Assembly (NCBI RefSeq): GCF_009914755.1
Contig: NC_060946.1
Length of the DNA stretch: 64,000 bases
Direction: 5' to 3' (one strand)
Source of the DNA: the human T2T-CHM13v2.0 reference genome, Homo sapiens
A program made the position numbers and the translations under genes. Numbering within the stretch: the stretch's first letter is position 1; each line of letters starts with the position of its first letter. Of this stretch, positions 4,575 through 64,000 are shown in pieces. The notes below the pieces were generated by a model that made no database searches, was not told the DNA's origin, and was given only the letters and a program-made list of their open reading frames with translations.

Positions 4575-4808
4575 TTCATTTTAAATTTATATTTTATTTA
4601 TTATTTTAATTTTTGTGAGTACGTAGTACCTATATGTATCTATGGATTATATCAGTGATTTTGATGAAGGCATGAAATGCACAAAAATAACATCAGATAA
4701 ATGGTTATTCATTGCCTCAACTATTTGTTCTTTATTTTACGAACAATCTAATAACATTCTTTTAGTTACTTAAAAATGTACAATTAAATTGCTTTGACTA
4801 TAGTCACT
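4575..4808 (-). mobile_element. L1MA-type 3' end, antisense, truncated at the array boundary
   Basis: T-rich tail, then ...ttttgatgaaggcatg...cttttagttacttaaaaatgtacaattaaattgctttgactatagtcac, which is typical of L1MA 3' UTRs. It stops abruptly where the array begins. Confidence 0.65.
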
Positions 4809-5089
4809 CCCGACCAGAGAAAAACCCTGTAGACATTAGTCACTCCTCATTCTGTCTCAAACCCTCTCCCTGACCCTCAGCCCTAGGTAGCAACTACCTA
4901 GTGCGATCAATCCCATATGCATAGATTTCCATATTGTGGACATTTCCTATAAGCGGAATTGCACAATAGGGGAGCTGTTATGACTGACATAACACGTAGC
5001 ACAATATTTTCAAGATTCGTCCACATTGTAGGCTTACCCACAGGGGGAAACCATTTTATTGGGGGCTTTTAGTAACACCGGTGTTTTCT

Positions 5090-5200
5090 CCTTCCTTACG
5101 TCCTTCTTTCCTTCCTTCCTTCCTTCCTTCCTGACTTCCTTCTTTCCTTCCCTCATTCCTCCTATTTCTCTCTTACTCCTTCTGCCCTCTCTCTTTCCTA
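5090..5200 (+). repeat. (TTCC)n / pyrimidine-rich microsatellite, present in every unit with variable length
   Basis: ttccttccttcc... tract; copies near 11390, 17840, 24115, 30545, 36830, 43270, 49555, 55985 and 62430. Confidence 0.9.
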
Positions 5201-6920: not shown

Positions 6921-6931
6921 TGATTGGATTA
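6921..6931 (-). promoter_or_regulatory. DUX4/double-homeodomain-type binding motif TAATCCAATCA
   Basis: The + strand reads TGATTGGATTA, an exact fit to the DUX4 consensus TAAYYYAATCA. It is conserved in all 9 complete units (6921, 13229, 19658, 25938, 32363, 38663, 45088, 51376, 57823). Binding itself is not shown. Confidence 0.55.
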
Positions 6932-7393: not shown

Positions 7394-7465
7394 CTCCGCC
7401 CTTTCCGCTGCTAGGCTGCGCCCGAGGCTATTTAAACCCACCCTGGCTGGCCTGTACTCAGATCT
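7394..7465 (+). promoter_or_regulatory. Predicted Pol II core promoter: GC box, TATA-like box and initiator
   Basis: CTCCGCCC (7394-7401, an Sp/KLF GC box), TATTTAAA (7429-7436), and Inr CTCA(+1)GA with A at 7460, 31 bp after the TATA T. Local CpG enrichment. TATA positions in the other units: 13737, 20166, 26446, 32871, 39171, 45596, 51884, 58331. Confidence 0.65.
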
Positions 7466-7585: not shown

Positions 7586-7624
<39 letters not shown>

Positions 7625-7737: not shown

Positions 7738-7799
7738 CTCCTTCCTTCTGCGAGTTAGAACATTAGTAGGGGCCCCTGGGAGCTGCAGGTTTCCTAATC

Positions 7800-10781
7800 A
7801 TGTCTGCACCTAAGAACAGTAGGGTCTTGTCTGGCTCTTCTTATGAACGGTTCCCCAGCCCGGACTCCCCAAGGTCCATGCGAGCCTCACCCAGCTTCTC
7901 CCTCTCCCCTCTCAGAAACTCAGGCTTAAGGGGAAGCTCCTCACCAGGGATCCGGAGCTACCATTCACCATCCCCTAGGGCTTCACCACACTCACCTCTG
8001 TCGTCACCAGAATCCCACAAGCTCCCATTTCCCTGTCCTCACCGTGATGGGCAATCAATGAAGCCATTGGGCTCTCCCGTGTCCTCTTCTGAGGATTCCT
8101 CAGAGTCCCCACGTTCATCAATAATATACCACATGTTCTTACTGCCATCACCCAGCAGCTCACCCCCAGCTCTCGGGGGGTCTCCTGTGTCTCCCAGCTA
8201 CTCTCCAAACAACCCCAGATTTCAGCTGCGGTCAGCCCCCCACACCCAGGAATCACCTACAAACTCACGAGCCTCACTTTGCTCCACCCCCGTGTCTTTC
8301 ATCTCTTCACCCCCAGGCCTCAGGGACTCTCCTGTGGCTCCCAGTTACTCTCCAGCCATCCCCAGGTTCCTGCGGGAGTCAGCCCCATGCGCCCAGGAGT
8401 CCCCCAGAGACTCACAGGTCTCGGGAGATTATGAGCGGTCCCCCAGCCCTGACTCCTCAAGATTCATGTCTGTCTCACCCAGCTTCTCCCTCTCCCCTCC
8501 CAGAAACTCAGACCCAAGGGGCAGCTCCTCACCAGGGATGTGGAAGTCCTCTACATCATCCCGCAGGGCTTCACCACTCTCACATCCGTCATCAACAGAA
8601 TTCCACAACTTTACGTTTCCCTTTCCTAACCAAGCAGGACAGTCACTCATGTCATTGTGTTCTCCCGTGACCTCCTCTGGAGATTCTTCACAGTCACCTC
8701 ATTCATCAATAATATACCATATGTTCTTACTGCCATCATCCAGCAGCTCACCCCCAGCCACCCATGACTCTCCTGTCTGTCCCAGCTACTCTCCAACTAC
8801 GCCCAGATTTCAGCGGGAGTCTGTACCCCACACCACAGAAACACCTACAAACTCACAGACCTCAGTGAGATCCTCGCCAGTCTCTCTCACGTCTTCACCC
8901 CCAGCCCTTACGGACCCTCCAGTCTGTCCCAGCTACTCTCCAACCACGCCCACATTTCAGCGCGGGTCAGTTCCAGGAACCCAGGGATCACCACCAAGCC
9001 CACCGCTTTCACTGAGTTACTCCCCAGTCTCTAGCACGTCTTTATCTCCAACCCTCAGGGACTCGCCTGTCTGTCCCAGCTACTCTCCAAACACGCCCAC
9101 ACTTCAGCGGGAGTCCGTTGCAGGCACCCAGAAGTCACCATCAAACTCACCAATTTCACTGCGTTACTCCCCAGTCTCTCTCATGTCTTCACCATCCCTC
9201 AGGGACTCTCCCGTCTGTCCCAGCTACTCTCCAACCACGCCCACATTTCAGCTGGAGTCAGTTCCAGGCACCCAGGAATCACCACCAAACTCACCAATTT
9301 CACTCAGTTACTCCTCAGTCTCTAGCACGTCTTTATCTCCAACCCTCAGGGACTCTCCTGTGTGTCCCAGCTACTCTCCAACCACGCCCACACTTCAGCG
9401 GGAGTCAGTTCCAGGCACCCAGGAATCACCACCAAACTCACCAATTTCACTCAATTACTCTCCAGTCTCTCTCGTGTCTTCACCAGCCCTCAGGGACTCT
9501 CCTGTCTGTCCCAGCTACTCTCCAACCACGCCCACATTTCAGCTGGAGTCAGTTCCAGGCACCCCGGAGTCACCACCAAACTCACCAGTTTCACTCAGTT
9601 ACTCCCCGGTCTCTCTCATGTCTTCACCCCCAGCCCTCAGGGACTCTCCTGTGCGTCCCAGCTACTCTCCAACCATGCCCAGATTTCAGCGGGAGTCAGT
9701 TCCAGGCACCCATGTGTCATCACCAAACTCAGCAGTTTCACTGAGTTACTCCCCAGTCTCTCTCATGTCTTCACCCCCAGACCCCTGGGACTCTCCTGTC
9801 TGTCCCAGCTACTCTCCCACCACGCCCAGATTTCAGCGGGAGTCAGCCTCCCACACTCCGGAATCAGATACAGACTCACAGACTTCACTGAGCTCCTCCC
9901 TGGTCTCTCTCAGGTCTTTGCCCTCATCCCACAGGGACTCTTGTGTCTCTTTCAGCTACTCTCAAAACTTCTCTAGATTCCAGCTGGAGTCAGTTCCAGG
10001 CACCCACGATACACCACCGAACTCACGAATTTCACTGACTTACTCCCCTGTCTCCCTCATGTTCTCACCCCCAGCCCTCAGGGACTCTTCTGTCTCTCTC
10101 AGCTACTCTCCAACCATCTCCAGATTTCACCTGGAGTCAGCTTCCCACACCCTGGAATCACCTGCAAACTCACGGACCTTACTGCAACCATCCCCCATTT
10201 CTTTCACCTCTTCACCCCCTGCCTTCAGGGACTCTCCTGGGTCTCCCAGCTTCTCTCCAGCCTTCCCCAGATTTCTGCCACAGTCAGCCCCAGGCACCCA
10301 GGACAACCCTAGACACTCACAGGCCTCACCAGACTATCTCCCTATGACCTGTACCTATACAGGGATGGCTCCCACGCATCCCTCAGTGACCCCAAACCCA
10401 TCTCAACTTACACTCAGGCACTCCCAGGGCCTGACAGCTACACCCCGTTATTGTCCTTCAGTTCGAAGCCCTGGCCAATCTACTAGCCCACATGACGCAG
10501 TTACCTGGCCATTTCTCCACGGTTCCCGGGAGGGCCCCACACCCAGCCGCACAAGAGCCCCTCCTGCATTCCGTCCTCACACGCAGGCCTGTCCATCTAC
10601 TTGCTACTGTCACACTCTTGCCAGCAGAAGAGGCCCCTGTAATGGCCGATATCACCACCCAGTCTATCCTCACCCCACAGCTGTGCAGCGGGAACCCCCT
10701 GCTGGCCCACGTGGCTGCCACAGCCCATGCTGGCACGACGCTCCAGCAGGTCGGCGTCCCTGCGGGCCAAACTACCGGTGA
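7800..10781 (+). CDS. Ser/Pro/Thr-rich Pol II CTD-like repeat protein, type A (993 aa), unit 1
   Basis: Uninterrupted 2982-bp ORF. The ATG has A at -3 and is the first ATG after the predicted TSS. It contains 49-aa repeats with PSYSPTTP. Translation is unproven. Confidence 0.6.
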   Translation: MSAPKNSRVLSGSSYERFPSPDSPRSMRASPSFSLSPLRNSGLRGSSSPGIRSYHSPSPRASPHSPLSSPESHKLPFPCPHRDGQSMKPLGSPVSSSEDSSESPRSSIIYHMFLLPSPSSSPPALGGSPVSPSYSPNNPRFQLRSAPHTQESPTNSRASLCSTPVSFISSPPGLRDSPVAPSYSPAIPRFLRESAPCAQESPRDSQVSGDYERSPSPDSSRFMSVSPSFSLSPPRNSDPRGSSSPGMWKSSTSSRRASPLSHPSSTEFHNFTFPFPNQAGQSLMSLCSPVTSSGDSSQSPHSSIIYHMFLLPSSSSSPPATHDSPVCPSYSPTTPRFQRESVPHTTETPTNSQTSVRSSPVSLTSSPPALTDPPVCPSYSPTTPTFQRGSVPGTQGSPPSPPLSLSYSPVSSTSLSPTLRDSPVCPSYSPNTPTLQRESVAGTQKSPSNSPISLRYSPVSLMSSPSLRDSPVCPSYSPTTPTFQLESVPGTQESPPNSPISLSYSSVSSTSLSPTLRDSPVCPSYSPTTPTLQRESVPGTQESPPNSPISLNYSPVSLVSSPALRDSPVCPSYSPTTPTFQLESVPGTPESPPNSPVSLSYSPVSLMSSPPALRDSPVRPSYSPTMPRFQRESVPGTHVSSPNSAVSLSYSPVSLMSSPPDPWDSPVCPSYSPTTPRFQRESASHTPESDTDSQTSLSSSLVSLRSLPSSHRDSCVSFSYSQNFSRFQLESVPGTHDTPPNSRISLTYSPVSLMFSPPALRDSSVSLSYSPTISRFHLESASHTLESPANSRTLLQPSPISFTSSPPAFRDSPGSPSFSPAFPRFLPQSAPGTQDNPRHSQASPDYLPMTCTYTGMAPTHPSVTPNPSQLTLRHSQGLTATPRYCPSVRSPGQSTSPHDAVTWPFLHGSREGPTPSRTRAPPAFRPHTQACPSTCYCHTLASRRGPCNGRYHHPVYPHPTAVQREPPAGPRGCHSPCWHDAPAGRRPCGPNYR
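8150..10400 (+). repeat. ACRO1-type 147-bp satellite block, coding within the long ORF (in every unit)
   Basis: Core cccagctactctcc (or a variant) at 8193 and 8340, then 8781, 8928, 9075, 9219, 9366, 9510, 9657, 9804, 9951, 10098 and 10245. Spacing is 147 bp, or 144 bp in two places. Long units have one extra monomer. Confidence 0.85.
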
Positions 10782-10989: not shown

Positions 10990-11325
10990 GCCACATAAGA
11001 TTCCCCCATTAAAAGTCATGAATTGAGTGGCTTTTAGTATACCTGTGGTTGTGCACATTCAAATTTAATTCGCAATTCATTGTAGAACGTCTTATCACTC
11101 CCGGCCAGAGAAAAACCCTGTAGACATTAGTCACTCCTCATTCTGTCTCAAACCCTCTCCCTGACCCTCAGCCCTAGGTAGCAACTACCTAGTGCGATCA
11201 ATCCCATATGCATAGATTATCATATTGTGGACATTTCCTATAAGCGGAATTACACAATAGGTGAGCTGTTATGACTGACATAACACGTAGCACAATATTT
11301 TCAAGATTCGTCCACATTGTAGGCT
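10990..11325 (-). mobile_element. Old L1M (MB/ME-like) 3' end fragment, antisense (in every unit)
   Basis: cccatt.aaagt...aattgagtggcttttagtata...gttgtgca...tagaac...cattagtcactcc.catt...attgtggacatttc.tataa..ggaatt...ttttcaagattc.tcca..ttgtag matches the L1M 3' antisense pattern. Confidence 0.6.
11008..11052 (+). terminator. Candidate polyadenylation signal ATTAAA plus GT-rich downstream element
   Basis: ATTAAA lies 227 bp after the stop codon, followed by gagtggcttttagtatacctgtggttgtg. The offset is the same in all units (17455, 23729, 30160, 36442, 42885, 49167, 55598, 62045). Confidence 0.45.
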
Positions 11326-13924: not shown

Positions 13925-14099
13925 CATTGGTTGGTTGATTTCCATTTTCTTAAGGGGCACATACCTCACACCGCACACACACAAACACACACACGCACAC
14001 ACACACGCACACGCACACGCACACACACGCACACACACTCCTTCCTTCTGCGAGTTAGAACATTAGTAGGGGCCCCTGGGAGCTGCAGGTTTCCTAATC

Positions 14100-17000
14100 A
14101 TGTCTGCACCTAAGAACGGTAGGGTCTTGTCTGGCTCTTCTTATGAACGGTCCCCCAGCCCGGACTCCCCAAGGTCCATGCGAACCTCACCCAGCTTCCC
14201 CCTCTCCCCTCTCAGAAACTCAGGCTTAAGGGGAAGCTCCTCACCAGGGATCCGGAGCTACCATTCACCATCCCCTAGGGCTTCACCACACTCACCTCTG
14301 TCATCACCAGAATCCCACAAGCTCCCATTTCCCTGTCCTCACCGTGATGGGCAATCAATGAAGCCATTGGGCTCTCCCGTGTCCTCCACTGAGGATTCCT
14401 CAGAGTCCCCACGTTCATCAATAATATACCACATGTTCTTACTGCCATCACCCAGCAGCTCACCCCAGGCTCTCGGGGGGTCTCCTGTGTCTCCCAGCTA
14501 CTCTCCAAACAACCCCAGATTTCAGCTGCAGTCAGCCCCCCACACCCAGGAATCACCTACAAACTCACGAGCCTCACTTTGCTCCACCCCTGCGTCTTTC
14601 ATCTCTTCACCCCAAGGCCTCAGGGACTCTCCTGTGGCTCCCAGTTACTCTCCAGCCATCCCCAGGTTCCTGCGGGAGTCAGCCCCATGCGCCCAGGAGT
14701 CCCCCAGAGACTCACAGGTCTCGGGAGATTATGAGCGGTCCCCCAGCCCTGACTCCTCAAGATTCATGCCTGCCTCACCCAGCTTCTCCCTCTCCCCTCC
14801 CAGAAACTCAGACCCAAGGGGCAGCTCCTCACCAGGGATGTGGAAGTCCTCTACATCATCCCGCAGGGCTTCACCACTCTCACATCCGTCATCAACAGAA
14901 TTCCACAACTTTACGTTTCCCATTCCTAACCAAGCAGGACAGTCACTCATGTCATTGTGTTCTCCCGTGACCTCCTCTGGAGATTCTTCACAGTCACCTC
15001 ATTCATCAATAATATACCATATGTTCTTACTGCCATCATCCAGCAGCTCACCCCCAGCCACCCATGACTCTCCTGTCTGTCCCAGCTACTCTCCAACTAC
15101 GCCCAGATTTCAGCGGGAGTCTGTACCCCACACCCCAGAAACACCTACAAACTCACAGACCTCAGTGAGATCCTCGCCAGTCTCTCTCACGTCTTCACCC
15201 CCAGCCCTTACGGACCCTCCAGTCTGTCCCAGCTACTCTCCAACCACGCCCACATTTCAGCGCGGGTCAGTTCCAGGAACCCAGGGATCACCACCAAGCC
15301 CACCGCTTTCACTGAGTTACTCCCCAGTCTCTAGCACGTCTTTATCTCCAACCCTCAGGGACTCGCCTGTCTGTCCCAGCTACTCTCCAAACACGCCCAC
15401 ACTTCAGCGGGAGTCCGTTGCAGGCACCCAGAAGTCACCACCAAACTCACCAATTTCACTGCGTTACTCCCCAGTCTCTCTCATGTCTTCACCATCCCTC
15501 AGGGACTCTCCCGTCTGTCCCAGCTACTCTCCAACCACGCCCACATTTCAGCTGGAGTCAGTTCCAGGCACTCCGGAATCACCACCAAACTCACCAATTT
15601 CACTCAGTTACTCCTCAGTCTCTAGCACGTCTCTATCTCCAACCCTCAGGGACTCTCCTGTGTGTCCCAGCTACTCTCCAACCACGCCCACACTTCAGCG
15701 GGAGTCAGTTCCAGGCACCCAGGAATCACCACCAAACTCACCAATTTCACTCAGTTACTCCTCAGTCTCTAGCACGTCTTTATCTCCAACCCTCAGGGAC
15801 TCTCCTGTGTGTCCCAGCTACTCTCCAACCACGCCCACACTTCAGCGGGAGTCAGTTCCAGGCACCCAGGAATCACCACCAAACTCACCAATTTCACTCA
15901 ATTACTCTCCAGTCTCTCTCGTGTCTTCACCAGCCCTCAGGGACTCTCCTGTCTGTCCCAGCTACTCTCCAACCACGCCCACATTTCAGCTGGAGTCAGT
16001 TCCAGGCACCCCGGAGTCACCACCAAACTCACCGGTTTCACTCAGTTACTCCTCGGTCTCTCTCATGTCTTCACCCCCAGCCCTCAGGGACTCTCCTGTG
16101 TGTCCCAGCTACTCTCCAACCATGCCCAGATTTCAGCGGGAGTCAGTTCCAGGCACCCATGTATCACCACCAAACTCAGCAGTTTCACTGAGTTACTCCC
16201 CAGTCTCTCTCATGTCTTCACCCCCAGACCCCTGGGACTCTCCTGTCTGTCCCAGCTACTCTCCCACCACGCCCAGATTTCAGCGGGAGTCAGCCTCCCA
16301 CACTCCGGAATCAGATACAGACTCACAGACCTCACTGAACTCCTCCCTGGTCTCTCTCAGGTCTTTGCCCTCATCCCACAGGGACTCTTGTGTCTCTTTC
16401 AGCTACTCTCAAAACTTCTCTAGATTCCAGCTGGAGTCAGTTCCAGGCACCCACGATACACCACCGAACTCACGAATTTCACTGACTTACTCCCCAGTCT
16501 CCCTCATGTTCTCACCCCCAGCCCTCAGGGACTCTTCTGTCTCTCTCAGCTACTCTCCAACCATCTCCAGATTTCACCTGGAGTCAGCTTCCCACACCCT
16601 GGAATCACCTGCAAACTCACGGACCTTACTGCAACCATCCCCCATTTCTTTCACCTCTTCACCCCCTGCCTTCAGGGACTCTCCTGGGTCTCCCAGCTTC
16701 TCTCCAGCCTTCCCCAGATTTCTGCCACAGTCAGCCCCAGGCACCCAGGACAACCCTAGACACTCACAGGCCTCACCAGACTATCTCCCTATGACCTGTA
16801 CCTATACAGGGATGGCTCCCACGCATAGCTCAGTGACCCCAAACCCATCTCCACTTACACTCAGGCACTCCCAGGGCCTGACAGCTACTCCCCGTTATTG
16901 TCCTTCAGTTCGAAGCCCTGGCCAATCTACTAGCCCACATGACGCAGTTACCTGGCCATTTCTCCACGGTTCCCAGGAGGGCCCCACACCCAGCCGCACA

Positions 17001-45783: not shown

Positions 45784-45958
45784 CATTGGTTGGTTGATTT
45801 CCATTTTCTTAAGGGGCACATACCTCACACCGCACACACACAAACACACACACGCACACACACACGCACACGCACACGCACACACACGCACACACACTCC
45901 TTCCTTCTGCGAGTTAGAACATTAGTAGGGGCCCCTGGGAGCTGCAGGTTTCCTAATC

Positions 45959-51900: not shown

Positions 51901-52242
51901 GCTGGCCTGTACTCAGATCTTCGCGGAGCGGATCAGCGGCCGGAGCGTTTGGTGGACTCTGCGTGGACTTGGAGCTCACAGCGTCTTGCGACTTGGAAGC
52001 GGATTCAGAGGACAGGACAGAACACTTGGGCAAGTGAATCTCTGTCTGTCTGTCTGTCTGTCTGTCTCATTGGTTGGTTGATTTCCATTTTCTTAAGGGG
52101 CACATACCTCACACCGCACACACACAAACACACACACGCACACACACACGCACACGCACACGCACACACACGCACACACACTCCTTCCTTCTGCGAGTTA
52201 GAACATTAGTAGGGGCCCCTGGGAGCTGCAGGTTTCCTAATC

Positions 52243-55200
52243 ATGTCTGCACCTAAGAACGGTAGGGTCTTGTCTGGCTCTTCTTATGAACGGTCCCCCA
52301 GCCCGGACTCCCCAAGGTCCATGCGAACCTCACCCAGCTTCCCCCTCTCCCCTCTCAGAAACTCAGGCTTAAGGGGAAGCTCCTCACCAGGGATCCGGAG
52401 CTACCATTCACCATCCCCTAGGGCTTCACCACACTCACCTCTGTCATCACCAGAATCCCACAAGCTCCCATTTCCCTGTCCTCACCGTGATGGGCAATCA
52501 ATGAAGCCATTGGGCTCTCCAGTGTCCTCCTCTGAGGATTCCTCAGAGTCCCCACGTTCATCAATAATATACCACATGTTCTTACTGCCATCACCCAGCA
52601 GCTCACCCCAGGCTCTCGGGGGGTCTCCCGTGTCTCCCAGCTACTCTCCAAACAACCCCAGATTTCAGCTGCAGTCAGCCCCCCACACCCAGGAATCACC
52701 TACAAACTCACGAGCCTCACTTTGCTCCACCCCTGCGTCTTTCATCTCTTCACCCCAAGGCCTCAGGGACTCTCCTGTGGCTCCCAGTTACTCTCCAGCC
52801 ATCCCCAGGTTCCTGCGGGAGTCAGCCCCATGCGCCCAGGAGTCCCCCAGAGACTCACAGGTCTCGGGAGATTATGAGCGGTCCCCCAGCCCTGACTCCT
52901 CAAGATTCATGCCTGCCTCACCCAGCTTCTCCCTCTCCCCTCCCAGAAACTCAGACCCAAGGGGCAGCTCCTCACCAGGGATGTGGAAGTCCTCTACATC
53001 ATCCCGCAGGGCTTCACCACTCTCACATCCGTCATCAACAGAATTCCACAACTTTACGTTTCCCATTCCTAACCAAGCAGGACAGTCACTCATGTCATTG
53101 TGTTCTCCCGTGACCTCCTCTGGAGATTCTTCACAGTCACCTCATTCATCAATAATATACCATATGTTCTTACTGCCATCATCCAGCAGCTCACCCCCAG
53201 CCACCCATGACTCTCCTGTCTGTCCCAGCTACTCTCCAACTACGCCCAGATTTCAGCGGGAGTCTGTACCCCACACCCCAGAAACACCTACAAACTCACA
53301 GACCTCAGTGAGATCCTCGCCAGTCTCTCTCACGTCTTCACCCCCAGCCCTTACGGACCCTCCAGTCTGTCCCAGCTACTCTCCAACCACGCCCACATTT
53401 CAGCGCGGGTCAGTTCCAGGAACCCAGGGATCACCACCAAGCCCACCGCTTTCACTGAGTTACTCCCCAGTCTCTAGCACGTCTTTATCTCCAACCCTCA
53501 GGGACTCGCCTGTCTGTCCCAGCTACTCTCCAAACACGCCCACACTTCAGCGGGAGTCCGTTGCAGGCACCCAGAAGTCACCACCAAACTCACCAATTTC
53601 ACTGCGTTACTCCCCAGTCTCTCTCATGTCTTCACCATCCCTCAGGGACTCTCCCGTCTGTCCCAGCTACTCTCCAACCACGCCCACATTTCAGCTGGAG
53701 TCAGTTCCAGGCACCCCGGAATCACCACCAAACTCACCAATTTCACTCAGTTACTCCTCAGTCTCTAGCACGTCTCTATCTCCAACCCTCAGGGACTCTC
53801 CTGTGTGTCCCAGCTACTCTCCAACCACGCCCACACTTCAGCGGGAGTCAGTTCCAGGCACCCAGGAATCACCACCAAACTCACCAATTTCACTCAGTTA
53901 CTCCTCAGTCTCTAGCACGTCTTTATCTCCAACCCTCAGGGACTCTCCTGTGTGTCCCAGCTACTCTCCAACCACGCCCACACTTCAGCGGGAGTCAGTT
54001 CCAGGCACCCAGGAATCACCACCAAACTCACCAATTTCACTCAATTACTCTCCAGTCTCTCTCGTGTCTTCACCAGCCCTCAGGGACTCTCCTGTCTGTC
54101 CCAGCTACTCTCCAACCACGCCCACATTTCAGCTGGAGTCAGTTCCAGGCACCCCGGAGTCACCACCAAACTCACCAGTTTCACTCAGTTACTCCCCGGT
54201 CTCTCTCATGTCTTCACCCCCAGCCCTCAGGGACTCTCCTGTGCGTCCCAGCTACTCTCCAACCATGCCCAGATTTCAGCGGGAGTCAGTTCCAGGCACC
54301 CATGTGTCATCACCAAACTCAGCAGTTTCACTGAGTTACTCCCCAGTCTCTCTCATGTCTTCACCCCCAGACCCCTGGGACTCTCCTGTCTGTCCCAGCT
54401 ACTCTCCCACCACGCCCAGATTTCAGCGGGAGTCAGCCTCCCACACTCCGGAATCAGATACAGACTCACAGACTTCACTGAGCTCCTCCCTGGTCTCTCT
54501 CAGGTCTTTGCCCTCATCCCACAGGGACTCTTGTGTCTCTTTCAGCTACTCTCAAAACTTCTCTAGATTCCAGCTGGAGTCAGTTCCAGGCACCCACGAT
54601 ACACCACCGAACTCACGAATTTCACTGACTTACTCCCCTGTCTCCCTCATGTTCTCACCCCCAGCCCTCAGGGACTCTTCTGTCTCTCTCAGCTACTCTC
54701 CAACCATCTCCAGATTTCACCTGGAGTCAGCTTCCCACACCCTGGAATCACCTGCAAACTCACGGACCTTACTGCAACCATCCCCCATTTCTTTCACCTC
54801 TTCACCCCCTGCCTTCAGGGACTCTCCTGGGTCTCCCAGCTTCTCTCCAGCCTTCCCCAGATTTCTGCCACAGTCAGCCCCAGGCACCCAGGACAACCCT
54901 AGACACTCACAGGCCTCACCAGACTATCTCCCTATGACCTGTACCTATACAGGGATGGCTCCCACGCATCCCTCAGTGACCCCAAACCCATCTCAACTTA
55001 CACTCAGGCACTCCCAGGGCCTGACAGCTACACCCCGTTATTGTCCTTCAGTTCGAAGCCCTGGCCAATCTACTAGCCCACATGACGCAGTTACCTGGCC
55101 ATTTCTCCACGGTTCCCGGGAGGGCCCCACACCCAGCCGCACAAGAGCCCCTCCTGCATTCCGTCCTCACACGCAGGCCTGTCCATCTACTTGCTACTGT

Positions 55201-55371
55201 CACACTCTTGCCAGCAGAAGAGGCCCCTGTAATGGCCGATATCACCACCCAGTCTATCCTCACCCCACAGCTGTGCAGCGGGAACCCCCTGCTGGCCCAC
55301 GTGGCTGCCACAGCCCATGCTGGCACGACGCTCCAGCAGGTCGGCGTCCCTGCGGGCCAAACTACCGGTGA
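52243..55371 (+). CDS. CTD-like repeat protein, B/A recombinant (1042 aa), unit 8
   Basis: Intact ORF with a type B N-terminal half, including the extra monomer, and type A C-terminal residues (SPVRPSY, THVSSPN, THPSV, GSREG). Confidence 0.6.
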   Translation: MSAPKNGRVLSGSSYERSPSPDSPRSMRTSPSFPLSPLRNSGLRGSSSPGIRSYHSPSPRASPHSPLSSPESHKLPFPCPHRDGQSMKPLGSPVSSSEDSSESPRSSIIYHMFLLPSPSSSPQALGGSPVSPSYSPNNPRFQLQSAPHTQESPTNSRASLCSTPASFISSPQGLRDSPVAPSYSPAIPRFLRESAPCAQESPRDSQVSGDYERSPSPDSSRFMPASPSFSLSPPRNSDPRGSSSPGMWKSSTSSRRASPLSHPSSTEFHNFTFPIPNQAGQSLMSLCSPVTSSGDSSQSPHSSIIYHMFLLPSSSSSPPATHDSPVCPSYSPTTPRFQRESVPHTPETPTNSQTSVRSSPVSLTSSPPALTDPPVCPSYSPTTPTFQRGSVPGTQGSPPSPPLSLSYSPVSSTSLSPTLRDSPVCPSYSPNTPTLQRESVAGTQKSPPNSPISLRYSPVSLMSSPSLRDSPVCPSYSPTTPTFQLESVPGTPESPPNSPISLSYSSVSSTSLSPTLRDSPVCPSYSPTTPTLQRESVPGTQESPPNSPISLSYSSVSSTSLSPTLRDSPVCPSYSPTTPTLQRESVPGTQESPPNSPISLNYSPVSLVSSPALRDSPVCPSYSPTTPTFQLESVPGTPESPPNSPVSLSYSPVSLMSSPPALRDSPVRPSYSPTMPRFQRESVPGTHVSSPNSAVSLSYSPVSLMSSPPDPWDSPVCPSYSPTTPRFQRESASHTPESDTDSQTSLSSSLVSLRSLPSSHRDSCVSFSYSQNFSRFQLESVPGTHDTPPNSRISLTYSPVSLMFSPPALRDSSVSLSYSPTISRFHLESASHTLESPANSRTLLQPSPISFTSSPPAFRDSPGSPSFSPAFPRFLPQSAPGTQDNPRHSQASPDYLPMTCTYTGMAPTHPSVTPNPSQLTLRHSQGLTATPRYCPSVRSPGQSTSPHDAVTWPFLHGSREGPTPSRTRAPPAFRPHTQACPSTCYCHTLASRRGPCNGRYHHPVYPHPTAVQREPPAGPRGCHSPCWHDAPAGRRPCGPNYR

Positions 55372-58300: not shown

Positions 58301-58689
58301 CCCTTTCCGCTGCTAGGCTGCGCCCGAGGCTATTTAAACCCACCCTGGCTGGCCTGTACTCAGATCTTCGCGGAGCGGATCAGCGGCCGGAGCGTTTGGT
58401 GGACTCTGCGTGGACTTGGAGCTCACAGCGTCTTGCGACTTGGAAGCGGATTCAGAGGACAGGACAGAACACTTGGGCAAGTGAATCTCTGTCTGTCTGT
58501 CTGTCTGTCTGTCTCATTGGTTGGTTGATTTCCATTTTCTTAAGGGGCACATACCTCACACCGCACACACACAAACACACACACGCACACACACACGCAC
58601 ACGCACACGCACACACACGCACACACACTCCTTCCTTCTGCGAGTTAGAACATTAGTAGGGGCCCCTGGGAGCTGCAGGTTTCCTAATC

Positions 58690-61600
58690 ATGTCTGCACC
58701 TAAGAACGGTAGGGTCTTGTCTGGCTCTTCTTATGAACGGTCCCCCAGCCCGGACTCCCCAAGGTCCATGCGAACCTCACCCAGCTTCCCCCTCTCCCCT
58801 CTCAGAAACTCAGGCTTAAGGGGAAGCTCCTCACCAGGGATCCGGAGCTACCATTCACCATCCCCTAGGGCTTCACCACACTCACCTCTGTCATCACCAG
58901 AATCCCACAAGCTCCCATTTCCCTGTCCTCACCGTGATGGGCAATCAATGAAGCCATTGGGCTCTCCCGTGTCCTCCTCTGAGGATTCCTCAGAGTCCCC
59001 ACGTTCATCAATAATATACCACATGTTCTTACTGCCATCACCCAGCAGCTCACCCCAGGCTCTCGGGGGGTCTCCCGTGTCTCCCAGCTACTCTCCAAAC
59101 AACCCCAGATTTCAGCTGCAGTCAGCCCCCCACACCCAGGAATCACCTACAAACTCACGAGCCTCACTTTGCTCCACCCCTGCGTCTTTCATCTCTTCAC
59201 CCCAAGGCCTCAGGGACTCTCCTGTGGCTCCCAGTTACTCTCCAGCCATCCCCAGGTTCCTGCGGGAGTCAGCCCCATGCGCCCAGGAGTCCCCCAGAGA
59301 CTCACAGGTCTCGGGAGATTATGAGCGGTCCCCCAGCCCTGACTCCTCAAGATTCATGCCTGCCTCACCCAGCTTCTCCCTCTCCCCTCCCAGAAACTCA
59401 GACCCAAGGGGCAGCTCCTCACCAGGGATGTGGAAGTCCTCTACATCATCCCGCAGGGCTTCACCACTCTCACATCCGTCATCAACAGAATTCCACAACT
59501 TTACGTTTCCCATTCCTAACCAAGCAGGACAGTCACTCATGTCATTGTGTTCTCCCGTGACCTCCTCTGGAGATTCTTCACAGTCACCTCATTCATCAAT
59601 AATATACCATATGTTCTTACTGCCATCATCCAGCAGCTCACCCCCAGCCACCCATGACTCTCCTGTCTGTCCCAGCTACTCTCCAACTACGCCCAGATTT
59701 CAGCGGGAGTCTGTACCCCACACCCCAGAAACACCTACAAACTCACAGACCTCAGTGAGATCCTCGCCAGTCTCTCTCACGTCTTCACCCCCAGCCCTTA
59801 CGGACCCTCCAGTCTGTCCCAGCTACTCTCCAACCACGCCCACATTTCAGCGCGGGTCAGTTCCAGGAACCCAGGGATCACCACCAAGCCCACCGCTTTC
59901 ACTGAGTTACTCCCCAGTCTCTAGCACGTCTTTATCTCCAACCCTCAGGGACTCGCCTGTCTGTCCCAGCTACTCTCCAAACACGCCCACACTTCAGCGG
60001 GAGTCCGTTGCAGGCACCCAGAAGTCACCACCAAACTCACCAATTTCACTGCGTTACTCCCCAGTCTCTCTCATGTCTTCACCATCCCTCAGGGACTCTC
60101 CCGTCTGTCCCAGCTACTCTCCAACCACGCCCACATTTCAGCTGGAGTCAGTTCCAGGCGCCCCGGAATCACCACCAAACTCACCAATTTCACTCAGTTA
60201 CTCCTCAGTCTCTAGCACGTCTCTATCTCCAACCCTCAGGGACTCTCCTGTGTGTCCCAGCTACTCTCCAACCACGCCCACACTTCAGCGGGAGTCAGTT
60301 CCAGGCACCCAGGAATCACCACCAAACTCACCAATTTCACTCAGTTACTCCTCAGTCTCTAGCACGTCTTTATCTCCAACCCTCAGGGACTCTCCTGTGT
60401 GTCCCAGCTACTCTCCAACCACGCCCACACTTCAGCGGGAGTCAGTTCCAGGCACCCAGGAATCACCACCAAACTCACCAATTTCACTCAATTACTCTCC
60501 AGTCTCTCTCGTGTCTTCACCAGCCCTCAGGGACTCTCCTGTCTGTCCCAGCTACTCTCCAACCACGCCCACATTTCAGCTGGAGTCAGTTCCAGGCACC
60601 CCGGAGTCACCACCAAACTCACCAGTTTCACTCAGTTACTCCCCGGTCTCTCTCATGTCTTCACCCCCAGCCCTCAGGGACTCTCCTGTGCGTCCCAGCT
60701 ACTCTCCAACCATGCCCAGATTTCAGCGGGAGTCAGTTCCAGGCACCCATGTGTCATCACCAAACTCAGCAGTTTCACTGAGTTACTCCCCAGTCTCTCT
60801 CATGTCTTCACCCCCAGACCCCTGGGACTCTCCTGTCTGTCCCAGCTACTCTCCCACCACGCCCAGATTTCAGCGGGAGTCAGCCTCCCACACTCCGGAA
60901 TCAGATACAGACTCACAGACTTCACTGAGCTCCTCCCTGGTCTCTCTCAGGTCTTTGCCCTCATCCCACAGGGACTCTTGTGTCTCTTTCAGCTACTCTC
61001 AAAACTTCTCTAGATTCCAGCTGGAGTCAGTTCCAGGCACCCACGATACACCACCGAACTCACGAATTTCACTGACTTACTCCCCTGTCTCCCTCATGTT
61101 CTCACCCCCAGCCCTCAGGGACTCTTCTGTCTCTCTCAGCTACTCTCCAACCATCTCCAGATTTCACCTGGAGTCAGCTTCCCACACCCTGGAATCACCT
61201 GCAAACTCACGGACCTTACTGCAACCATCCCCCATTTCTTTCACCTCTTCACCCCCTGCCTTCAGGGACTCTCCTGGGTCTCCCAGCTTCTCTCCAGCCT
61301 TCCCCAGATTTCTGCCACAGTCAGCCCCAGGCACCCAGGACAACCCTAGACACTCACAGGCCTCACCAGACTATCTCCCTATGACCTGTACCTATACAGG
61401 GATGGCTCCCACGCATCCCTCAGTGACCCCAAACCCATCTCAACTTACACTCAGGCACTCCCAGGGCCTGACAGCTACACCCCGTTATTGTCCTTCAGTT
61501 CGAAGCCCTGGCCAATCTACTAGCCCACATGACGCAGTTACCTGGCCATTTCTCCACGGTTCCCGGGAGGGCCCCACACCCAGCCGCACAAGAGCCCCTC

Positions 61601-61818
61601 CTGCATTCCGTCCTCACACGCAGGCCTGTCCATCTACTTGCTACTGTCACACTCTTGCCAGCAGAAGAGGCCCCTGTAATGGCCGATATCACCACCCAGT
61701 CTATCCTCACCCCACAGCTGTGCAGCGGGAACCCCCTGCTGGCCCACGTGGCTGCCACAGCCCATGCTGGCACGACGCTCCAGCAGGTCGGCGTCCCTGC
61801 GGGCCAAACTACCGGTGA
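58690..61818 (+). CDS. CTD-like repeat protein, B/A recombinant (1042 aa), unit 9
   Basis: Same hybrid structure as unit 8, plus a private PGAPES variant. Confidence 0.6.
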   Translation: MSAPKNGRVLSGSSYERSPSPDSPRSMRTSPSFPLSPLRNSGLRGSSSPGIRSYHSPSPRASPHSPLSSPESHKLPFPCPHRDGQSMKPLGSPVSSSEDSSESPRSSIIYHMFLLPSPSSSPQALGGSPVSPSYSPNNPRFQLQSAPHTQESPTNSRASLCSTPASFISSPQGLRDSPVAPSYSPAIPRFLRESAPCAQESPRDSQVSGDYERSPSPDSSRFMPASPSFSLSPPRNSDPRGSSSPGMWKSSTSSRRASPLSHPSSTEFHNFTFPIPNQAGQSLMSLCSPVTSSGDSSQSPHSSIIYHMFLLPSSSSSPPATHDSPVCPSYSPTTPRFQRESVPHTPETPTNSQTSVRSSPVSLTSSPPALTDPPVCPSYSPTTPTFQRGSVPGTQGSPPSPPLSLSYSPVSSTSLSPTLRDSPVCPSYSPNTPTLQRESVAGTQKSPPNSPISLRYSPVSLMSSPSLRDSPVCPSYSPTTPTFQLESVPGAPESPPNSPISLSYSSVSSTSLSPTLRDSPVCPSYSPTTPTLQRESVPGTQESPPNSPISLSYSSVSSTSLSPTLRDSPVCPSYSPTTPTLQRESVPGTQESPPNSPISLNYSPVSLVSSPALRDSPVCPSYSPTTPTFQLESVPGTPESPPNSPVSLSYSPVSLMSSPPALRDSPVRPSYSPTMPRFQRESVPGTHVSSPNSAVSLSYSPVSLMSSPPDPWDSPVCPSYSPTTPRFQRESASHTPESDTDSQTSLSSSLVSLRSLPSSHRDSCVSFSYSQNFSRFQLESVPGTHDTPPNSRISLTYSPVSLMFSPPALRDSSVSLSYSPTISRFHLESASHTLESPANSRTLLQPSPISFTSSPPAFRDSPGSPSFSPAFPRFLPQSAPGTQDNPRHSQASPDYLPMTCTYTGMAPTHPSVTPNPSQLTLRHSQGLTATPRYCPSVRSPGQSTSPHDAVTWPFLHGSREGPTPSRTRAPPAFRPHTQACPSTCYCHTLASRRGPCNGRYHHPVYPHPTAVQREPPAGPRGCHSPCWHDAPAGRRPCGPNYR

Positions 61819-64000
61819 CATGTCTAGCGTGACCCTCCTTCCTGGCAGTGACACTGTTGATGTGAACCCCAATTTCACATCTGTCATTTGTAAATAGGAC
61901 CATTTTCCCTTTTCGCTCTCCCTTCCATTCACAGGGCTTTTCATTCTCTCTGTTACTGCCTCCGTTTCAGATATTTACTCACCTTTTTCTCTCTCACTAT
62001 GTCTGCCGTGGTCTCCATGAGAGTGCGCCACATAAGATTCCCCCATTAAAAGTCATGAATTGAGTGGCTTTTAGTATACCTGTGGTTGTGCACATTCAAA
62101 TTTAATTCGCAATTCATTGTAGAACGTCTTATCACTCCCGGCCAGAGAAAAACCCTGTAGACATTAGTCACTCCTCATTCTGTCTCAAACCCTCTCCCTG
62201 ACCCTCAGCCCTAGGTAGCAACTACCTAGTGCGATCAATCCCATATGCATAGATTATCATATTGTGGACATTTCCTATAAGCGGAATTACACAATAGGTG
62301 AGCTGTTATGACTGACATAACACGTAGCACAATATTTTCAAGATTCGTCCACATTGTAGGCTTACCCACAGGGGGAAACCATTTTATTGGGGGCTTTTAG
62401 TAACACCGGTGTTTTCTCCTTCCTTACATCCTTCTTTCCATCCTTCCTTCCTTCCTTCCTTCCTGACTTCCTTCTTTCCTTCCCTCCTTCCTCCTATTTC
62501 TCTCTTACTCCTTCTGCCCTCTCTCTTTCCTATGCCTTAGGTGCATCCCACATTCTGCGTTTTTTTGGGGGAAATCCTCGACAGGTGCAGGAAAATTGTG
62601 TTATTGTAACTATTTACCGTTATCTCTCTTTCACGGCTCTCCATCAGTTGTGAACATCTATTGGTTTATCCCAAGTCACTAAGCATATTTTCATTAGGTA
62701 AACCTGTTTTTCCTTATACAGCTGTTTCTGGAGTATAGGGTCGCATACTCATAAACCCAGTGTAACTCAGAAACGCATCTAATATTCCAGTAAACCCATC
62801 ATAACGTTGAAAAATCGTAAATCAAACCATCATAAGTCACGGTTTGTCCGTGGATATGGGCGTCATCAATTCCATTGTATTCAGTAATGCTGTACACCAT
62901 TAACAATGGCAGACTGATTGGGAGTGGATATTGATAGCATTATAAAAGTCAGTTATTAGAGGGATACTTCTTTAACCTGACTGAAGAACTGATCTAATGG
63001 CTTTAGTACAGTGCATGATTATGTGCGATGTTTTGAGACAGAGTAGTACATTTGTGAATGAAATTTTATGGCTTTTTTTTCACTTAGTAGGAACCATTGT
63101 GTGTGGAAAAGTGAGAAAATGGCTTTATGCTGTAGGGTCTGGCATTCATTGTAGATGTAAGCTTATTTTTCTGTGAGCAAATCTTATTCAATAAAATACT
63201 ACTCTTTATACTAAAAAACAAAAACAGTGGTGATGTGTGGTCATTACCCTCAGCAAACTTATCCAGGGAAAAGAAAACCAAACGCCACAACTCACTTATA
63301 ATGGGAGCTGAAAAATGAGATCCCATGGACACAGGAAGGGGAACAACACACACTGGGGCCTTCCGGGAGACAGAGCGTTAAGAAAAACAGCTACTGCATG
63401 CTGGGCCTAATACCTAGGTGATGGGTTGACAGGTGCAGCAAACCACCATGGCACACGTTAACCTTAGTAACAAATCTGCACATCCTGCACATATACCCCA
63501 GAACTTAGGAACGAAACGAAACAAAAGACAACGAAAAAGCAACAGCAAAACGCTAAAGGCAAAATAGAGTTTCAAACTGAGAAAGTGACAGACCAACGTC
63601 TGGTTCAAATCATGGTTCTCAACCCAGGTGCCATAAGGTCGGGATAAAGGATGTGGTTACATATTTTCAATAAGACATGCAGCAAATGACCAGAATGATT
63701 ATTCTCAACATATGTGTGTCTTCTAATTCAATGGTGACGCTATCTACCGGGACATAGCATTAGATTCCAAAGGGCCGAGTCCCGCCAGACAGGCCTCCCA
63801 CACTAATAACAATGGGAAGCCCTACGTTGCTTTACCTGTGCTTCTCAGCCACTGGCTATAAATCAGGTTGCCACCACTCCCAGATTTAGTTGCATTCATT
63901 TGCTGGAAGAGCTCACAGCACGCAGGGAAACACTTACATTTGCCGTTGTATTTTAGCGGACATTGCACAAAGTTCAGAAAAAAATGTGGGGCCCGGCATG

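What the first reader, a model, noticed from the sequence alone, without database searches (positions are those of the whole stretch)
4804..64000. A 'satellite' macro-array that looks like a tandem gene family encoding a stand-alone RNA Pol II CTD-like protein
Seen: all 9 complete ~6.3-kb units carry an intact ~1000-codon ORF with no stop or frameshift. Each is framed by a promoter and poly(A) signal and encodes a Ser/Pro/Thr-rich protein with about 13-14 PSYSPTTP-type cores and no polymerase catalytic domain or signal peptide. Known: the RPB1 CTD is a YSPTSPS heptad array phosphorylated by CDK7/9/12/13 and read by CID-domain proteins, capping enzyme, PIN1 and CTD phosphatases. Protein-coding macrosatellites exist in primates (D4Z4/DUX4, RS447/USP17L). 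Inference: this ACRO1 composite may be an amplified gene family producing a free CTD mimic (a kinase/phosphatase decoy or condensate scaffold). It would be missed because the region is repeat-masked and multi-mapping. Automated 'RPB1-like' or 'extensin-like' LOC models may already exist, but I know of no functional description.
Basis: partly seen in the sequence, partly recalled or inferred. Interest (0 to 1): 0.92.

Follow-up and report, generated by a model that had tools for sequence, protein, structure and literature searches.

The report
Known ACRO repeat carrying long ORF
This is the already described ACRO repeat of human acrocentric chromosome arms; each 6.3-kb unit really does carry a roughly 1000-codon open reading frame that seems to have been kept open during primate evolution, but nothing yet shows that a protein is made or that it imitates the tail of RNA polymerase II.

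Summary
From 4804 the window is an array of 6.3-6.4 kb units, and all 9 complete units carry an open frame of 1003 or 1052 codons. The object is the known ACRO/ACRE composite satellite.

Much of the idea is already in print:
- Boots et al. 2020 (PMC7714431) reported that translated ACRO1 resembles the Pol II CTD.
- A 2025 preprint (PMC12746033) calls the array the site of a "putative protein coding gene".
- RefSeq has an "extensin-like" model.

The nine intact copies are not nine tests. They differ at only 38 columns, in a neutral pattern. Recent human paralogues also look near-neutral, and 25 of 150 scored copies genome-wide have shortened frames.

Older comparisons do suggest that the frame was kept open:
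- There are no stops in diverged segments where 5-8 are expected.
- Colinear ORFs occur in marmoset and in more distant relatives, with an almost invariant C-terminal block.

Each unit also looks like a gene, with a DUX4-type motif, a TATA-like box and no upstream ATG. CTD membership fails. Translation is plausible but unproven. The CTD-decoy function is unsupported.

The parts
4804..64000 (+). ACRO composite macrosatellite array (runs on beyond the window end)
   Evidence: Self-alignment starts at 4804. Copies on the same chromosome continue to about window-external position 226 kb.
7770..10781 (+). ORF A1, 1003 codons stop to stop; ATG at 7800
14070..17228 (+). ORF B1, 1052 codons; ATG at 14100
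20491..23502 (+). ORF A2, 1003 codons; ATG at 20521
26775..29933 (+). ORF B2, 1052 codons; ATG at 26805
33204..36215 (+). ORF A3, 1003 codons; ATG at 33234
39500..42658 (+). ORF B3, 1052 codons; ATG at 39530
45929..48940 (+). ORF A4, 1003 codons; ATG at 45959
52213..55371 (+). ORF B4, 1052 codons; ATG at 52243
58660..61818 (+). ORF B5, 1052 codons; ATG at 58690
8748..10303 (+). 147-bp ACRO1 tandem array inside ORF A1. The others are at 15048-16750, 21469-23024, 27753-29455, 34182-35737, 40478-42180, 46907-48462, 53191-54893 and 59638-61340.
   Evidence: TRF reports period 147, 10.6-11.6 copies and 80-82% matches. The unit has a 21-bp sub-period.
14130..14720 (+). N module 1 of ORF B1: about 98 aa of non-ACRO1 sequence plus two 49-aa repeats
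14721..15320 (+). N module 2 of ORF B1, an old duplicate of module 1
   Evidence: 588 aligned bases, 23.8% different, with a single 3-base indel. dN/dS is 0.65.
17022..17096 (+). Conserved C-terminal block (PHTQACPSTCYCHTLASRRGPCNGR) in ORF B1; the same block occurs in every unit
   Evidence: The block is nearly invariant across 11 aligned relatives.
7429..7436 (+). TATA-like box TATTTAAA, 371 bases before the ATG. The others start at 13737, 20166, 26446, 32871, 39171, 45596, 51884 and 58331.
   Evidence: Present in 9 of 9 units, with no ATG between the box and the ORF's ATG. The sequence was read.
6921..6931 (-). DUX4-type motif TAATCCAATCA. The others are at 13229, 19658, 25938, 32363, 38663, 45088, 51376 and 57823.
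   Evidence: There are 9 matches against 0.46 expected in the window, and 0 of 100 shuffles reached 9. This is one ancestral site copied nine times, and the consensus pattern was recalled.
11008..11013 (+). ATTAAA 227 bases after the stop. The others start at 17455, 23729, 30160, 36442, 42885, 49167, 55598 and 62045. AATAAA follows at about +1370.
   Evidence: this is a hexamer match only

Best explanation
What it is (secure). The window holds the first 9 complete units and a partial unit of the distal chr22 ACRO array. This is the known primate-specific 6.3-kb ACRO/ACRE composite satellite of acrocentric short arms.

Anatomy (shown here). Each unit is laid out like a transcription unit:
- a DUX4-type homeobox motif about 870 bases upstream;
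- a TATA-like box about 360 bases upstream;
- a leader with (TCTG)n and (CA)n tracts and no upstream ATG;
- an ATG with A at -3;
- a 993- or 1042-codon ORF counted from that ATG;
- ATTAAA 227 bases after the stop.

The ORF has four parts: N module 1 with two 49-aa repeats, a diverged duplicate of that module, then 10-12 more 49-aa repeats, then a non-repeated tail of about 150 aa containing an almost invariant CPSTCYCHTLA block. Each 147-bp ACRO1 unit is itself seven degenerate 21-bp units. Amplification therefore always preserves the frame.

How it most likely works (inferred). The unit is switched on from this LTR-type promoter when DUX4 is present, in the 4-8-cell embryo. The sense RNA carries an ORF that selection has kept open across primates. 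It is therefore probably translated into a fast-drifting, disordered, Ser/Pro-rich protein with about 100 Ser/Thr-Pro sites. What matters in such a protein would be length, composition and a few short motifs.

Not shown. Use of this promoter, translation, and any function remain unshown. The CTD-decoy function is not supported.
For: Anatomy.

ORF beyond chance: 0 stops against 14-19 in the sister frames, and a shuffle maximum of 604 codons.

Frame kept open in old sequence:
- Among the 14 diverged 147-bp copies, permuting the 168 observed changes gives a mean of 8.0 stops in this frame. Only 0.3% of 2000 permutations gave none; 0 were observed.
- The sister frames carry stops at 2 and 6 independent positions.
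- The two N modules differ at 23.8% of 588 bases. They have 0 lineage-specific stops in this frame against 4 and 6 in the sister frames, and dN/dS is 0.65 against 1.25 and 0.87.

Cross-species:
- A marmoset record of 832 aa is colinear from the same Met to the same tail.
- Unnamed relatives P0008 (361 aa), P0110 (355 aa, one repeat) and P0113 (575 aa; 36% identical over 542 aa, E=7e-41) keep the same order of parts and the C-terminal block.

Genome census: 125 of 150 scored human copies keep frames of at least 931 codons.

Literature (passages read):
- DUX4 activates ACRO1 transcription (PMC8990217; 10.64898/2025.12.22.696056).
- ACRO1 RNA peaks at the 4-cell stage (PMC6545021).
- ACRO1 is hypomethylated in the male germline (PMC5832720).
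Against: Recent change looks neutral.
- Among the 9 window copies, 38 variable columns split 10 synonymous to 28 non-synonymous, with codon positions 14:11:13.
- Among 7 paralogues, 188 variable columns split 63:129 plus 2 stops, with positions 59:61:74. That gives dN/dS of about 0.86, not distinguishable from 1. The shortfall of stops (2 against about 6.8 expected) is shared by the control frames (3 and 4).
- The ORF is no better conserved than its flanks between A and B units (31 against 24 substitutions over similar lengths).

Broken copies exist and spread.
- 25 of 150 scored copies have frames of 149-899 codons, and in the chr14 array they recur in a regular pattern.
- The chr4, chr21 and chr14 paralogues are interrupted or truncated.
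- The colobus and baboon records leave the frame near residue 250.
- Two 5'-truncated copies without the ATG are still open for 931 codons.

Other points.
- Protein databases list only open frames, so they cannot show broken orthologues.
- There is no domain, no relative outside ACRO copies (87 hits) and no confident fold (mean pLDDT 37, single sequence).
- Boots et al. found no stable ACRO1 transcript in HeLa cells and found that sense ACRO1 blocks Pol II elongation in cis.
- The region was picked because of its ORF, so nominal P values overstate the case.
Confidence: 0.4

Rival explanations
1. Incidental ORF. ACRO is a non-coding satellite. Its C-rich 147-bp unit (3 x 49) happened to lack stops in one frame, and amplification multiplied that frame. 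Any function lies in the RNA or the chromatin, for instance the published Pol II-binding, self-silencing sense RNA, or heterochromatin and nucleolar organisation in the early embryo.
For: - The period is a multiple of three, and the central repeats differ from consensus by only 5-10%.
- Recent variation is neutral.
- Broken units are propagated within arrays.
- A promoterless truncated copy is equally open.
- Frame-hopping relatives of 400-546 aa show that all three + frames are fairly open in the repeat core.
- The apparent lack of indels in the ORF is explained by context. Nearly all flank indels lie in microsatellites or homopolymer runs.
- The RNA-level function has experimental support (PMC7714431).
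Against: - It does not explain zero stops across about 700 codons of old, 20-30% diverged sequence, when the sister frames gained 4-8.
- It does not explain dN/dS of 0.65 between the modules.
- It does not explain the open non-repeated tail with an invariant block.
- It does not explain colinear ORFs at 36-47% identity.
Confidence: 0.4
2. One reading: the arrays produce a free mimic of the Pol II CTD that acts as a decoy for CTD kinases or phosphatases, or as a condensate scaffold.
For: - The 49-aa unit is seven degenerate heptads. Lags 21, 63 and 42 are the top three self-matches of the consensus, with 66 of 147 at lag 21 against a shuffle maximum of 64.
- Five of the seven heptads carry SP at positions 2-3, and one reads YSPTTPR.
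- phmmer finds yeast-type RPB1 CTDs at E=2e-8.
- There are about 100 Ser/Thr-Pro sites.
Against: - YSPTSPS occurs 0 times, and YSPT[TS]P only 6-7 times, 49 residues apart.
- There is no PF05001 match in the protein. None of the 17 genome matches lies in ACRO; they lie at POLR2A, chr16 and chr1.
- The phmmer hit carries a bias of 88 bits, and human RPB1 scores E of about 6.
- No RPB1 appears among the 87 hits of the exhaustive search.
- The core is RPRYAPATP in P0113, so the CTD-like residues are not what is conserved.
- Translation itself is unproven.
Confidence: 0.05
3. Origin claim (Boots et al.): ACRO1 descends from a copy of the POLR2A CTD coding sequence.
For: - The 21-bp sub-period is in frame with a YSPTxP heptad.
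- blastn of the ORF against the POLR2A CTD exon gives 305 short plus-strand hits. Codon-permuted versions of the same exon give a mean of 159. The summed score is 7518 against a maximum of 5824 in 100 permutations.
- The two share the codon pattern AGC-TAC-TCN-CCA-AC.
Against: - The best alignment is only 92 bases at 69.6% identity and 41 bits, and 15 of 100 codon-permuted controls reach that score.
- The excess of short hits can come from a single shared 18-21-base core multiplied by 14 x 52 repeats.
- The protein matches yeast CTDs better than the human one. That is the wrong way round for a primate-age copy.
Confidence: 0.1

Closest known systems
ACRO / 'ACRE' composite satellite (ACRO1 147-bp satellite in a 6-kb unit; Boots et al. 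2020, PMC7714431; 10.64898/2025.12.22.696095)
   Same: The 147-bp sub-repeat, the roughly 6-kb unit, the location on acrocentric short arms plus chr3 and chr4, and the CTD-like in-silico translation all match. This is that element.
   Different: Nothing differs in kind. Added here: the full ORF anatomy, the promoter-like features, the 21-bp sub-period, a census of open frames and tests for coding constraint.
D4Z4 macrosatellite encoding DUX4 (recalled knowledge)
   Same: A tandem unit of several kb with one intact ORF per unit. It is primate-specific, silent in somatic cells and active in cleavage-stage embryos.
   Different: DUX4 has recognised homeodomains and proven protein function. The ACRO ORF has no domain and no protein evidence. 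ACRO appears to be a target of DUX4 rather than its source.
RPB1 C-terminal domain (Pfam PF05001)
   Same: Seven-residue periodicity, SP at heptad positions 2-3, richness in Ser/Pro/Thr/Tyr, and predicted disorder.
   Different: One near-consensus heptad per 49 residues rather than tandem consensus heptads. There is no PF05001 match, and it is not attached to a polymerase.
RefSeq model LOC124908428 'extensin-like' (hub table)
   Same: Same strand and same start codon at 7800.
   Different: By arithmetic on the hub's coordinates, together, the model leaves the long frame through a 76-base intron (10386-10461) and continues in the 141-codon frame 10435-10860. It therefore omits the conserved C-terminal block. 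The extensin hallmark SPPPP (recalled) occurs 0 times.

Membership tests
ACRO/ACRE composite satellite | 147-bp ACRO1 sub-repeat arrays inside a tandem unit of about 6 kb | tested here: met
   TRF reports period 147 and 10.6-11.6 copies per unit. Units are 6300 and 6421 bases. This matches the description read.
ACRO/ACRE composite satellite | Location on acrocentric short arms | tested here: met
   Copies lie on contigs 13, 14, 15, 21 and 22, plus 3 and 4.
ACRO/ACRE composite satellite | Unit also contains L1PA10, MER21B and L1MB8 fragments (Dfam annotation quoted in 10.64898/2025.12.22.696095) | not testable with these tools
   No repeat library is on hand. 14 non-ORF frames gave no Pfam match.
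RPB1 CTD (PF05001) | Tandem heptads of consensus YSPTSPS | tested here: not met
   YSPTSPS occurs 0 times. YSPT[TS]P occurs 6-7 times, spaced 49 residues apart. The heptad period exists but is degenerate.
RPB1 CTD (PF05001) | Match to the curated Pfam repeat model | tested here: not met
   No family at E<=1 for either ORF. In the genome scan, 17 matches from 150 scored of 629 candidates all lie at chr17 (POLR2A), chr16 and chr1, and none lies in ACRO.
RPB1 CTD (PF05001) | Sequence similarity to CTDs beyond composition | tested here: inconclusive
   phmmer gives E=2e-8 to a yeast-type CTD with 88 bits of bias, and E of about 6 for human RPB1. No RPB1 appears among 87 hits in 1.84 billion representatives.
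Extensin (RefSeq label) | Ser-Pro(3-5) motifs (recalled definition) | tested here: not met
   SPPPP occurs 0 times in both ORF types.
Protein-coding macrosatellite (D4Z4/DUX4 type) | Intact ORF in each unit | tested here: met
   9 of 9 units in the window. 125 of 150 scored copies genome-wide.
Protein-coding macrosatellite (D4Z4/DUX4 type) | Purifying selection on the ORF | tested here: inconclusive
   Recent copies look neutral. Old segments avoid stops and give dN/dS of 0.65. No primate DNA was available.
Protein-coding macrosatellite (D4Z4/DUX4 type) | Sense mRNA and protein product | not testable with these tools
   The literature shows ACRO1 RNA in embryos and after DUX4 induction, but the passages read give no strand, no transcription start and no protein.

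The most novel reading that the evidence does not exclude
The ACRO arrays are a DUX4-driven, cleavage-stage multicopy gene family. Hundreds of copies on the acrocentric arms would encode a disordered Ser/Pro-rich protein. Its reading frame, its 49-residue repeat architecture, an IIYHMF motif and a C-terminal CPSTCYCHTLA block have been preserved across primates while the rest of the sequence drifts freely. With about 100 proline-directed phosphorylation sites and a heptad sub-period, such a protein could compete for CTD-directed kinases or join nucleolar or transcriptional condensates just as the embryonic genome switches on.
Probability: 0.3. Interest if true: 0.8.

Novelty: already known. 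Interest (0 to 1): 0.45.

Why it matters
If the ORF is translated, the acrocentric short arms would hold one of the largest human gene families. These arms have long been treated as gene-poor satellite DNA next to the rDNA. The family would be expressed at embryonic genome activation under DUX4, which bears on early development, on FSHD muscle and on tumours with demethylated satellites. If it is not translated, ACRO is a useful caution: a repeat whose period is a multiple of three can hold a 1000-codon frame, attract gene models ('extensin-like', 'RPB1-like') and seed spurious proteins in databases. Either way the question is now directly testable on complete assemblies.

Tried and rejected
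- Pfam on both ORF types: no match. Pfam on 14 frames from the rest of the unit and the pre-array region: no match.
- Rfam on 1-21000: only mir-571, outside the array.
- A CTCF-type consensus (recalled pattern) as a DNA-level reason for the conserved C-terminal block: 0 matches within 1 mismatch.
- The argument that the ORF lacks frameshifting indels while its flanks have 6-12 per comparison: rejected as evidence. Nearly all flank indels sit in (TCTG)n, (CA)n, (TTCC)n or homopolymer runs. The ORF has no run of 7 or more and only 2 runs of 6 or more.
- Fetching DNA of the distant relatives for a proper dN/dS: the search for related loci with P0110 found nothing in genome contigs or viral contigs.
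- The last homologue search with P0110: no named relatives beyond one colobus record.
- AlphaFold2 on the 993-aa product from a single sequence: mean pLDDT 37.4 and no confident fold. No fold search was made, as it would be meaningless.
- The Atlas search of the tail: only a 993-aa 'putative extensin-like' cluster at score 0.82, probably the protein's own cluster.
- Paper search was badly framed (any 2 of 4 terms). None of its 12 listed papers holds ACRO1, so it says nothing.
- 'extensin-like' together with 'acrocentric': 0 papers.
Full report
OBSERVATION

The window is chr22:62001-126000 of T2T-CHM13. From 4804 to the end it aligns to itself as units of 6300 bases (A) and 6421 bases (B). These alternate in a 12.7-kb higher-order repeat whose copies are 99.1-99.7% identical. 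The last two units are both B.

One search lists exactly nine stop-to-stop frames of at least 300 codons, all on the + strand: four of 1003 codons and five of 1052. In all nine the first Met is codon 11. In the first unit that is 7800, the CDS start of the RefSeq 'extensin-like' model in the hub's table.

Over the same stretch the two sister + frames hold 14-19 stops and the - strand frames hold 46-99. In 300 dinucleotide-preserving shuffles the longest open frame averaged 248 codons and never exceeded 604.

ANATOMY

The product counted from the Met (993 or 1042 aa) is 24% Ser, 18% Pro and 7% Thr. It has 83-89 SP and 15-18 TP sites. Its parts, in order, are:
- an N module of about 98 aa followed by two 49-aa repeats;
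- a diverged duplicate of that whole 196-aa block;
- 10-12 further 49-aa repeats;
- a non-repeated tail of about 150 aa.

The 49-aa repeat is the 147-bp ACRO1 satellite. The A and B ORFs differ by one 147-base unit.

The 147-bp consensus has a 21-bp sub-period. Lags 21, 63 and 42 are its three best self-matches, with 66 of 147 at lag 21 against a maximum of 64 in 2000 shuffles. The unit therefore reads as seven degenerate heptads: YSPTTPR, FQRESVP, GTQESPP, NSPISLS, YSPVSLT, SSPPALR and DSPVCPS.

Around the ORF, 9 of 9 units carry:
- TAATCCAATCA on the - strand, 863-879 bases before the ATG; this fits the recalled DUX4 consensus TAAYBBAATCA;
- TATTTAAA 355-371 bases before the ATG;
- no ATG between that box and the ORF's ATG;
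- A at -3;
- ATTAAA 227 bases after the stop, and AATAAA at about +1370.

These are consensus matches. Each is one ancestral site copied nine times.

WHAT IS ALREADY KNOWN

- Boots et al. 2020 (PMC7714431; passages read) described the 147-bp ACRO1 unit inside a 6-kb 'ACRE' higher-order repeat with LINE, LTR and DNA-transposon pieces. They called it primate-specific. They reported that translated ACRO1 shares 23 of 49 residues with the Pol II CTD. They showed that sense ACRO1 RNA binds Pol II and blocks elongation in cis. They found no stable transcript in HeLa cells and speculated on descent from CTD mRNA.
- A 2026 version of a preprint on ape acrocentrics (10.64898/2025.12.22.696095; passage read) describes ACRO as a 6-kb composite of ACRO1, L1PA10, MER21B and L1MB8. 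It calls ACRO the most acrocentric-specific repeat class in great apes.
- ACRO1 RNA peaks at the 4-cell stage (PMC6545021).
- ACRO1 is activated by DUX4 (PMC8990217; 10.64898/2025.12.22.696056).
- ACRO1 is hypomethylated in spermatogonial stem cells and sperm (PMC5832720).
[quoted passage not shown] 2020)' (PMC12746033).
- Of the 38 papers that hold the word ACRO1, 32 were listed. None is, by title or abstract, about a protein product.

The object, its CTD likeness and even the gene suspicion are thus in print.

RECENT EVOLUTION LOOKS NEUTRAL

The nine window ORFs differ at 0-34 of 3012 positions. Of the 38 variable columns, 10 are synonymous and 28 are not, and codon positions are 14:11:13. 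About 27-30% synonymous is expected with no constraint, and only about 1.3 stop-creating changes are expected. 'All nine intact' is therefore uninformative.

Between A and B units the ORF has 31 substitutions and the rest of the unit has 24, over similar lengths.

In the whole assembly, the status of the paralogues examined is:
- intact full-length ORFs at chr22:4.03-4.11 Mb, chr3:95.8 Mb, chr22:7.57 Mb and the distal arrays of chr15 and chr21;
- one stop in the chr4 copy;
- a stop and an early end in a chr21:2.35 Mb copy;
- truncation of a chr14:4.03 Mb copy;
- a frameshift in a chr21:6.54 Mb copy.

True divergence among seven of these paralogues is only 0.5-4.3%. Over their 891 shared codons there are 188 variable columns: 63 synonymous, 129 non-synonymous and 2 stops, with positions 59:61:74. 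That gives dN/dS of roughly 0.86, not separable from 1. About 6.8 stops were expected, but the control frames also fall short of expectation with 3 and 4.

Adding three more copies gave the same picture. Changes private to two 5'-truncated, ATG-less copies are 5 synonymous to 25 non-synonymous, against 61 to 128 (plus 2 stops) for the full-length copies. This contrast is suggestive but not significant. The truncated copies are still open for 931 codons.

A census using the tail as query scored 150 of 308 candidates. Of these, 125 sit in frames of at least 931 codons and 25 in frames of 149-899. In the chr14 array the shortened ones recur in a regular pattern, so broken units are copied along with intact ones.

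I first took the absence of small indels in the ORF as evidence of constraint, because flanks show 6-12 per comparison. I then rejected it. Almost all flank indels lie in microsatellites or homopolymer runs, which the ORF lacks.

OLDER EVOLUTION DOES NOT LOOK NEUTRAL

The 14 internal 147-bp copies differ from their consensus by 5-33%, 329 differences in all. They align with a single 3-base gap. Codon positions are 93:116:120 and the synonymous share is 0.337, against 0.28-0.30 expected and 0.217 and 0.311 in the control frames.

I permuted the 168 distinct changes among columns with the same consensus base, which keeps the observed mutation spectrum and shared ancestry. This gives a mean of 8.0 stops in this frame, and only 0.3% of 2000 permutations give none; 0 were observed. 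The sister frames have 6 and 8 stops, at 2 and 6 independent positions.

The two N-module blocks align over 588 bases with 23.8% differences and one 3-base indel. Their dN/dS is 0.65 in this frame against 1.25 and 0.87 in the sister frames. This frame has no lineage-specific stop, against 4 and 6 in the sister frames.

These tests overlap in part, since four repeats belong to the modules. The region was also chosen for its ORF, so the nominal values overstate the case. Even so, the direction is consistent.

RELATIVES

Reading all 1.84 billion representatives with HMMER gave 87 hits at E<=0.001. All are ACRO-like pieces of at most 607 aa. There is no RPB1 and no other family among them.

Word-indexed searches found the following:
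- A marmoset record named 'RPB1' by its source, 832 aa, colinear from the same Met to the same tail and 54% identical end to end. By eye, about 60 residues of it match another ACRO1 frame.
- Colobus and baboon 'RPB1-like' records that leave the frame near residue 250.
- Many fragments, some of which hop between frames.

Unnamed relatives are more telling:
- P0008 (361 aa) and P0110 (355 aa) have the N module, one or two repeats and the tail.
- P0113 (575 aa) is 36% identical over 542 aa (E=7e-41). It has its own amplified 49-aa repeats with the core RPRYAPATP, and the same tail.

In an 11-sequence alignment the block CPSTCYCHTLAxRR is nearly invariant while its surroundings vary. An IIYHMF motif is kept in both N modules and in P0110.

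About half of the aligned residues differ between human and marmoset, and 3-4% of random changes create stops. I therefore infer that ten or more stops would be expected without constraint. This is an inference, not a measurement.

The weaknesses are plain:
- Protein databases show only open frames.
- The marmoset record is a gene model.
- I had no primate DNA.

CTD COMPARISON

- YSPTSPS never occurs, and YSPT[TS]P occurs 6-7 times, 49 residues apart.
- PF05001 does not match the protein.
- In a scan of the whole assembly with PF05001, the 17 matches lie at POLR2A, chr16 and chr1, not in ACRO. Only 150 of 629 candidates were scored.
- phmmer against PDB sequences finds yeast-type CTDs at E=2e-8, but with 88 bits of bias. 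Human RPB1 scores E of about 6.
- At DNA level the best ORF-to-POLR2A alignment is 92 bases at 69.6% identity, a score reached by 15 of 100 codon-permuted controls. The number of short hits (305 against a mean of 159) exceeds all controls. One shared 18-21-base core could explain that excess.

The likeness is a real heptad periodicity with an SP signature. It is not CTD membership, and descent from POLR2A is open.

STRUCTURE

AlphaFold2 on the single sequence gave a mean pLDDT of 37.4, with 0 residues at 90 or above. This is consistent with disorder, though a single-sequence model is weak evidence.

VERDICT

The feature is real and is the known ACRO composite. I put about 0.4 on the reading that the ORF has been kept open by selection and is translated in the DUX4-driven cleavage-stage programme. 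I put about 0.4 on an incidental frame in an RNA- or chromatin-level satellite. I put about 0.05 on the CTD-decoy function.

The RefSeq model probably mis-states the 3' end. By the hub's coordinates, it switches through a 76-base intron into the 141-codon frame 10435-10860 and so drops the conserved tail.

Noticed in passing
window 1130-1214 (+): A full-length match to the mir-571 precursor family (RF03470): 90.6 bits against a gathering score of 40, E=5.5e-19. It lies in the sequence before the array.
   Followed up: no
proteins P0010 and P0016: Records 86-96% identical to the human ACRO ORF are annotated in a Plasmodium ovale wallikeri assembly as 'PIR Superfamily Protein', 'hypothetical protein' and 'RPB1, partial'. 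They look like human DNA contamination turned into proteins, as described for bacteria in PMC6581058.
   Followed up: partly
G000 contig 14, about 6.5-220 kb: In the distal chr14 ACRO array, shortened frames (810, 330, 892 and 457 codons) recur at regular spacing among 1003-codon units. Defective units have been copied as part of larger blocks.
   Followed up: no
L047 and L048 (G000 C22:10659400-10663400 and C21:7626700-7630700): Two near-identical copies (4 differences) are truncated at the 5' end inside N module 1 and joined to unrelated sequence. They are still open for 931 codons.
   Followed up: partly
window 10386-10461 and 10435-10860: The RefSeq model's 76-base intron moves the reading into a different, 141-codon frame and bypasses the long ORF's own last 132 codons and stop. 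This follows from arithmetic on the hub table.
   Followed up: partly
G000 C16:30912683-30912931 (-): Three matches to the Pfam CTD repeat model lie inside a 536-aa open frame on chr16, outside POLR2A. This is another heptad-bearing frame that I did not identify.
   Followed up: no
window about 20320-20460 and 24100-24170, and the same places in each unit: (TCTG)n and (CA)n tracts in the putative leader, and a (TTCC)n tract after the ORF, vary in length between paralogues by 4-36 bases.
   Followed up: partly
L019 (G000 C22:164429-170516): One unit of the same chr22 array has a 1248-codon frame, because a whole N-module block is duplicated once more.
   Followed up: no
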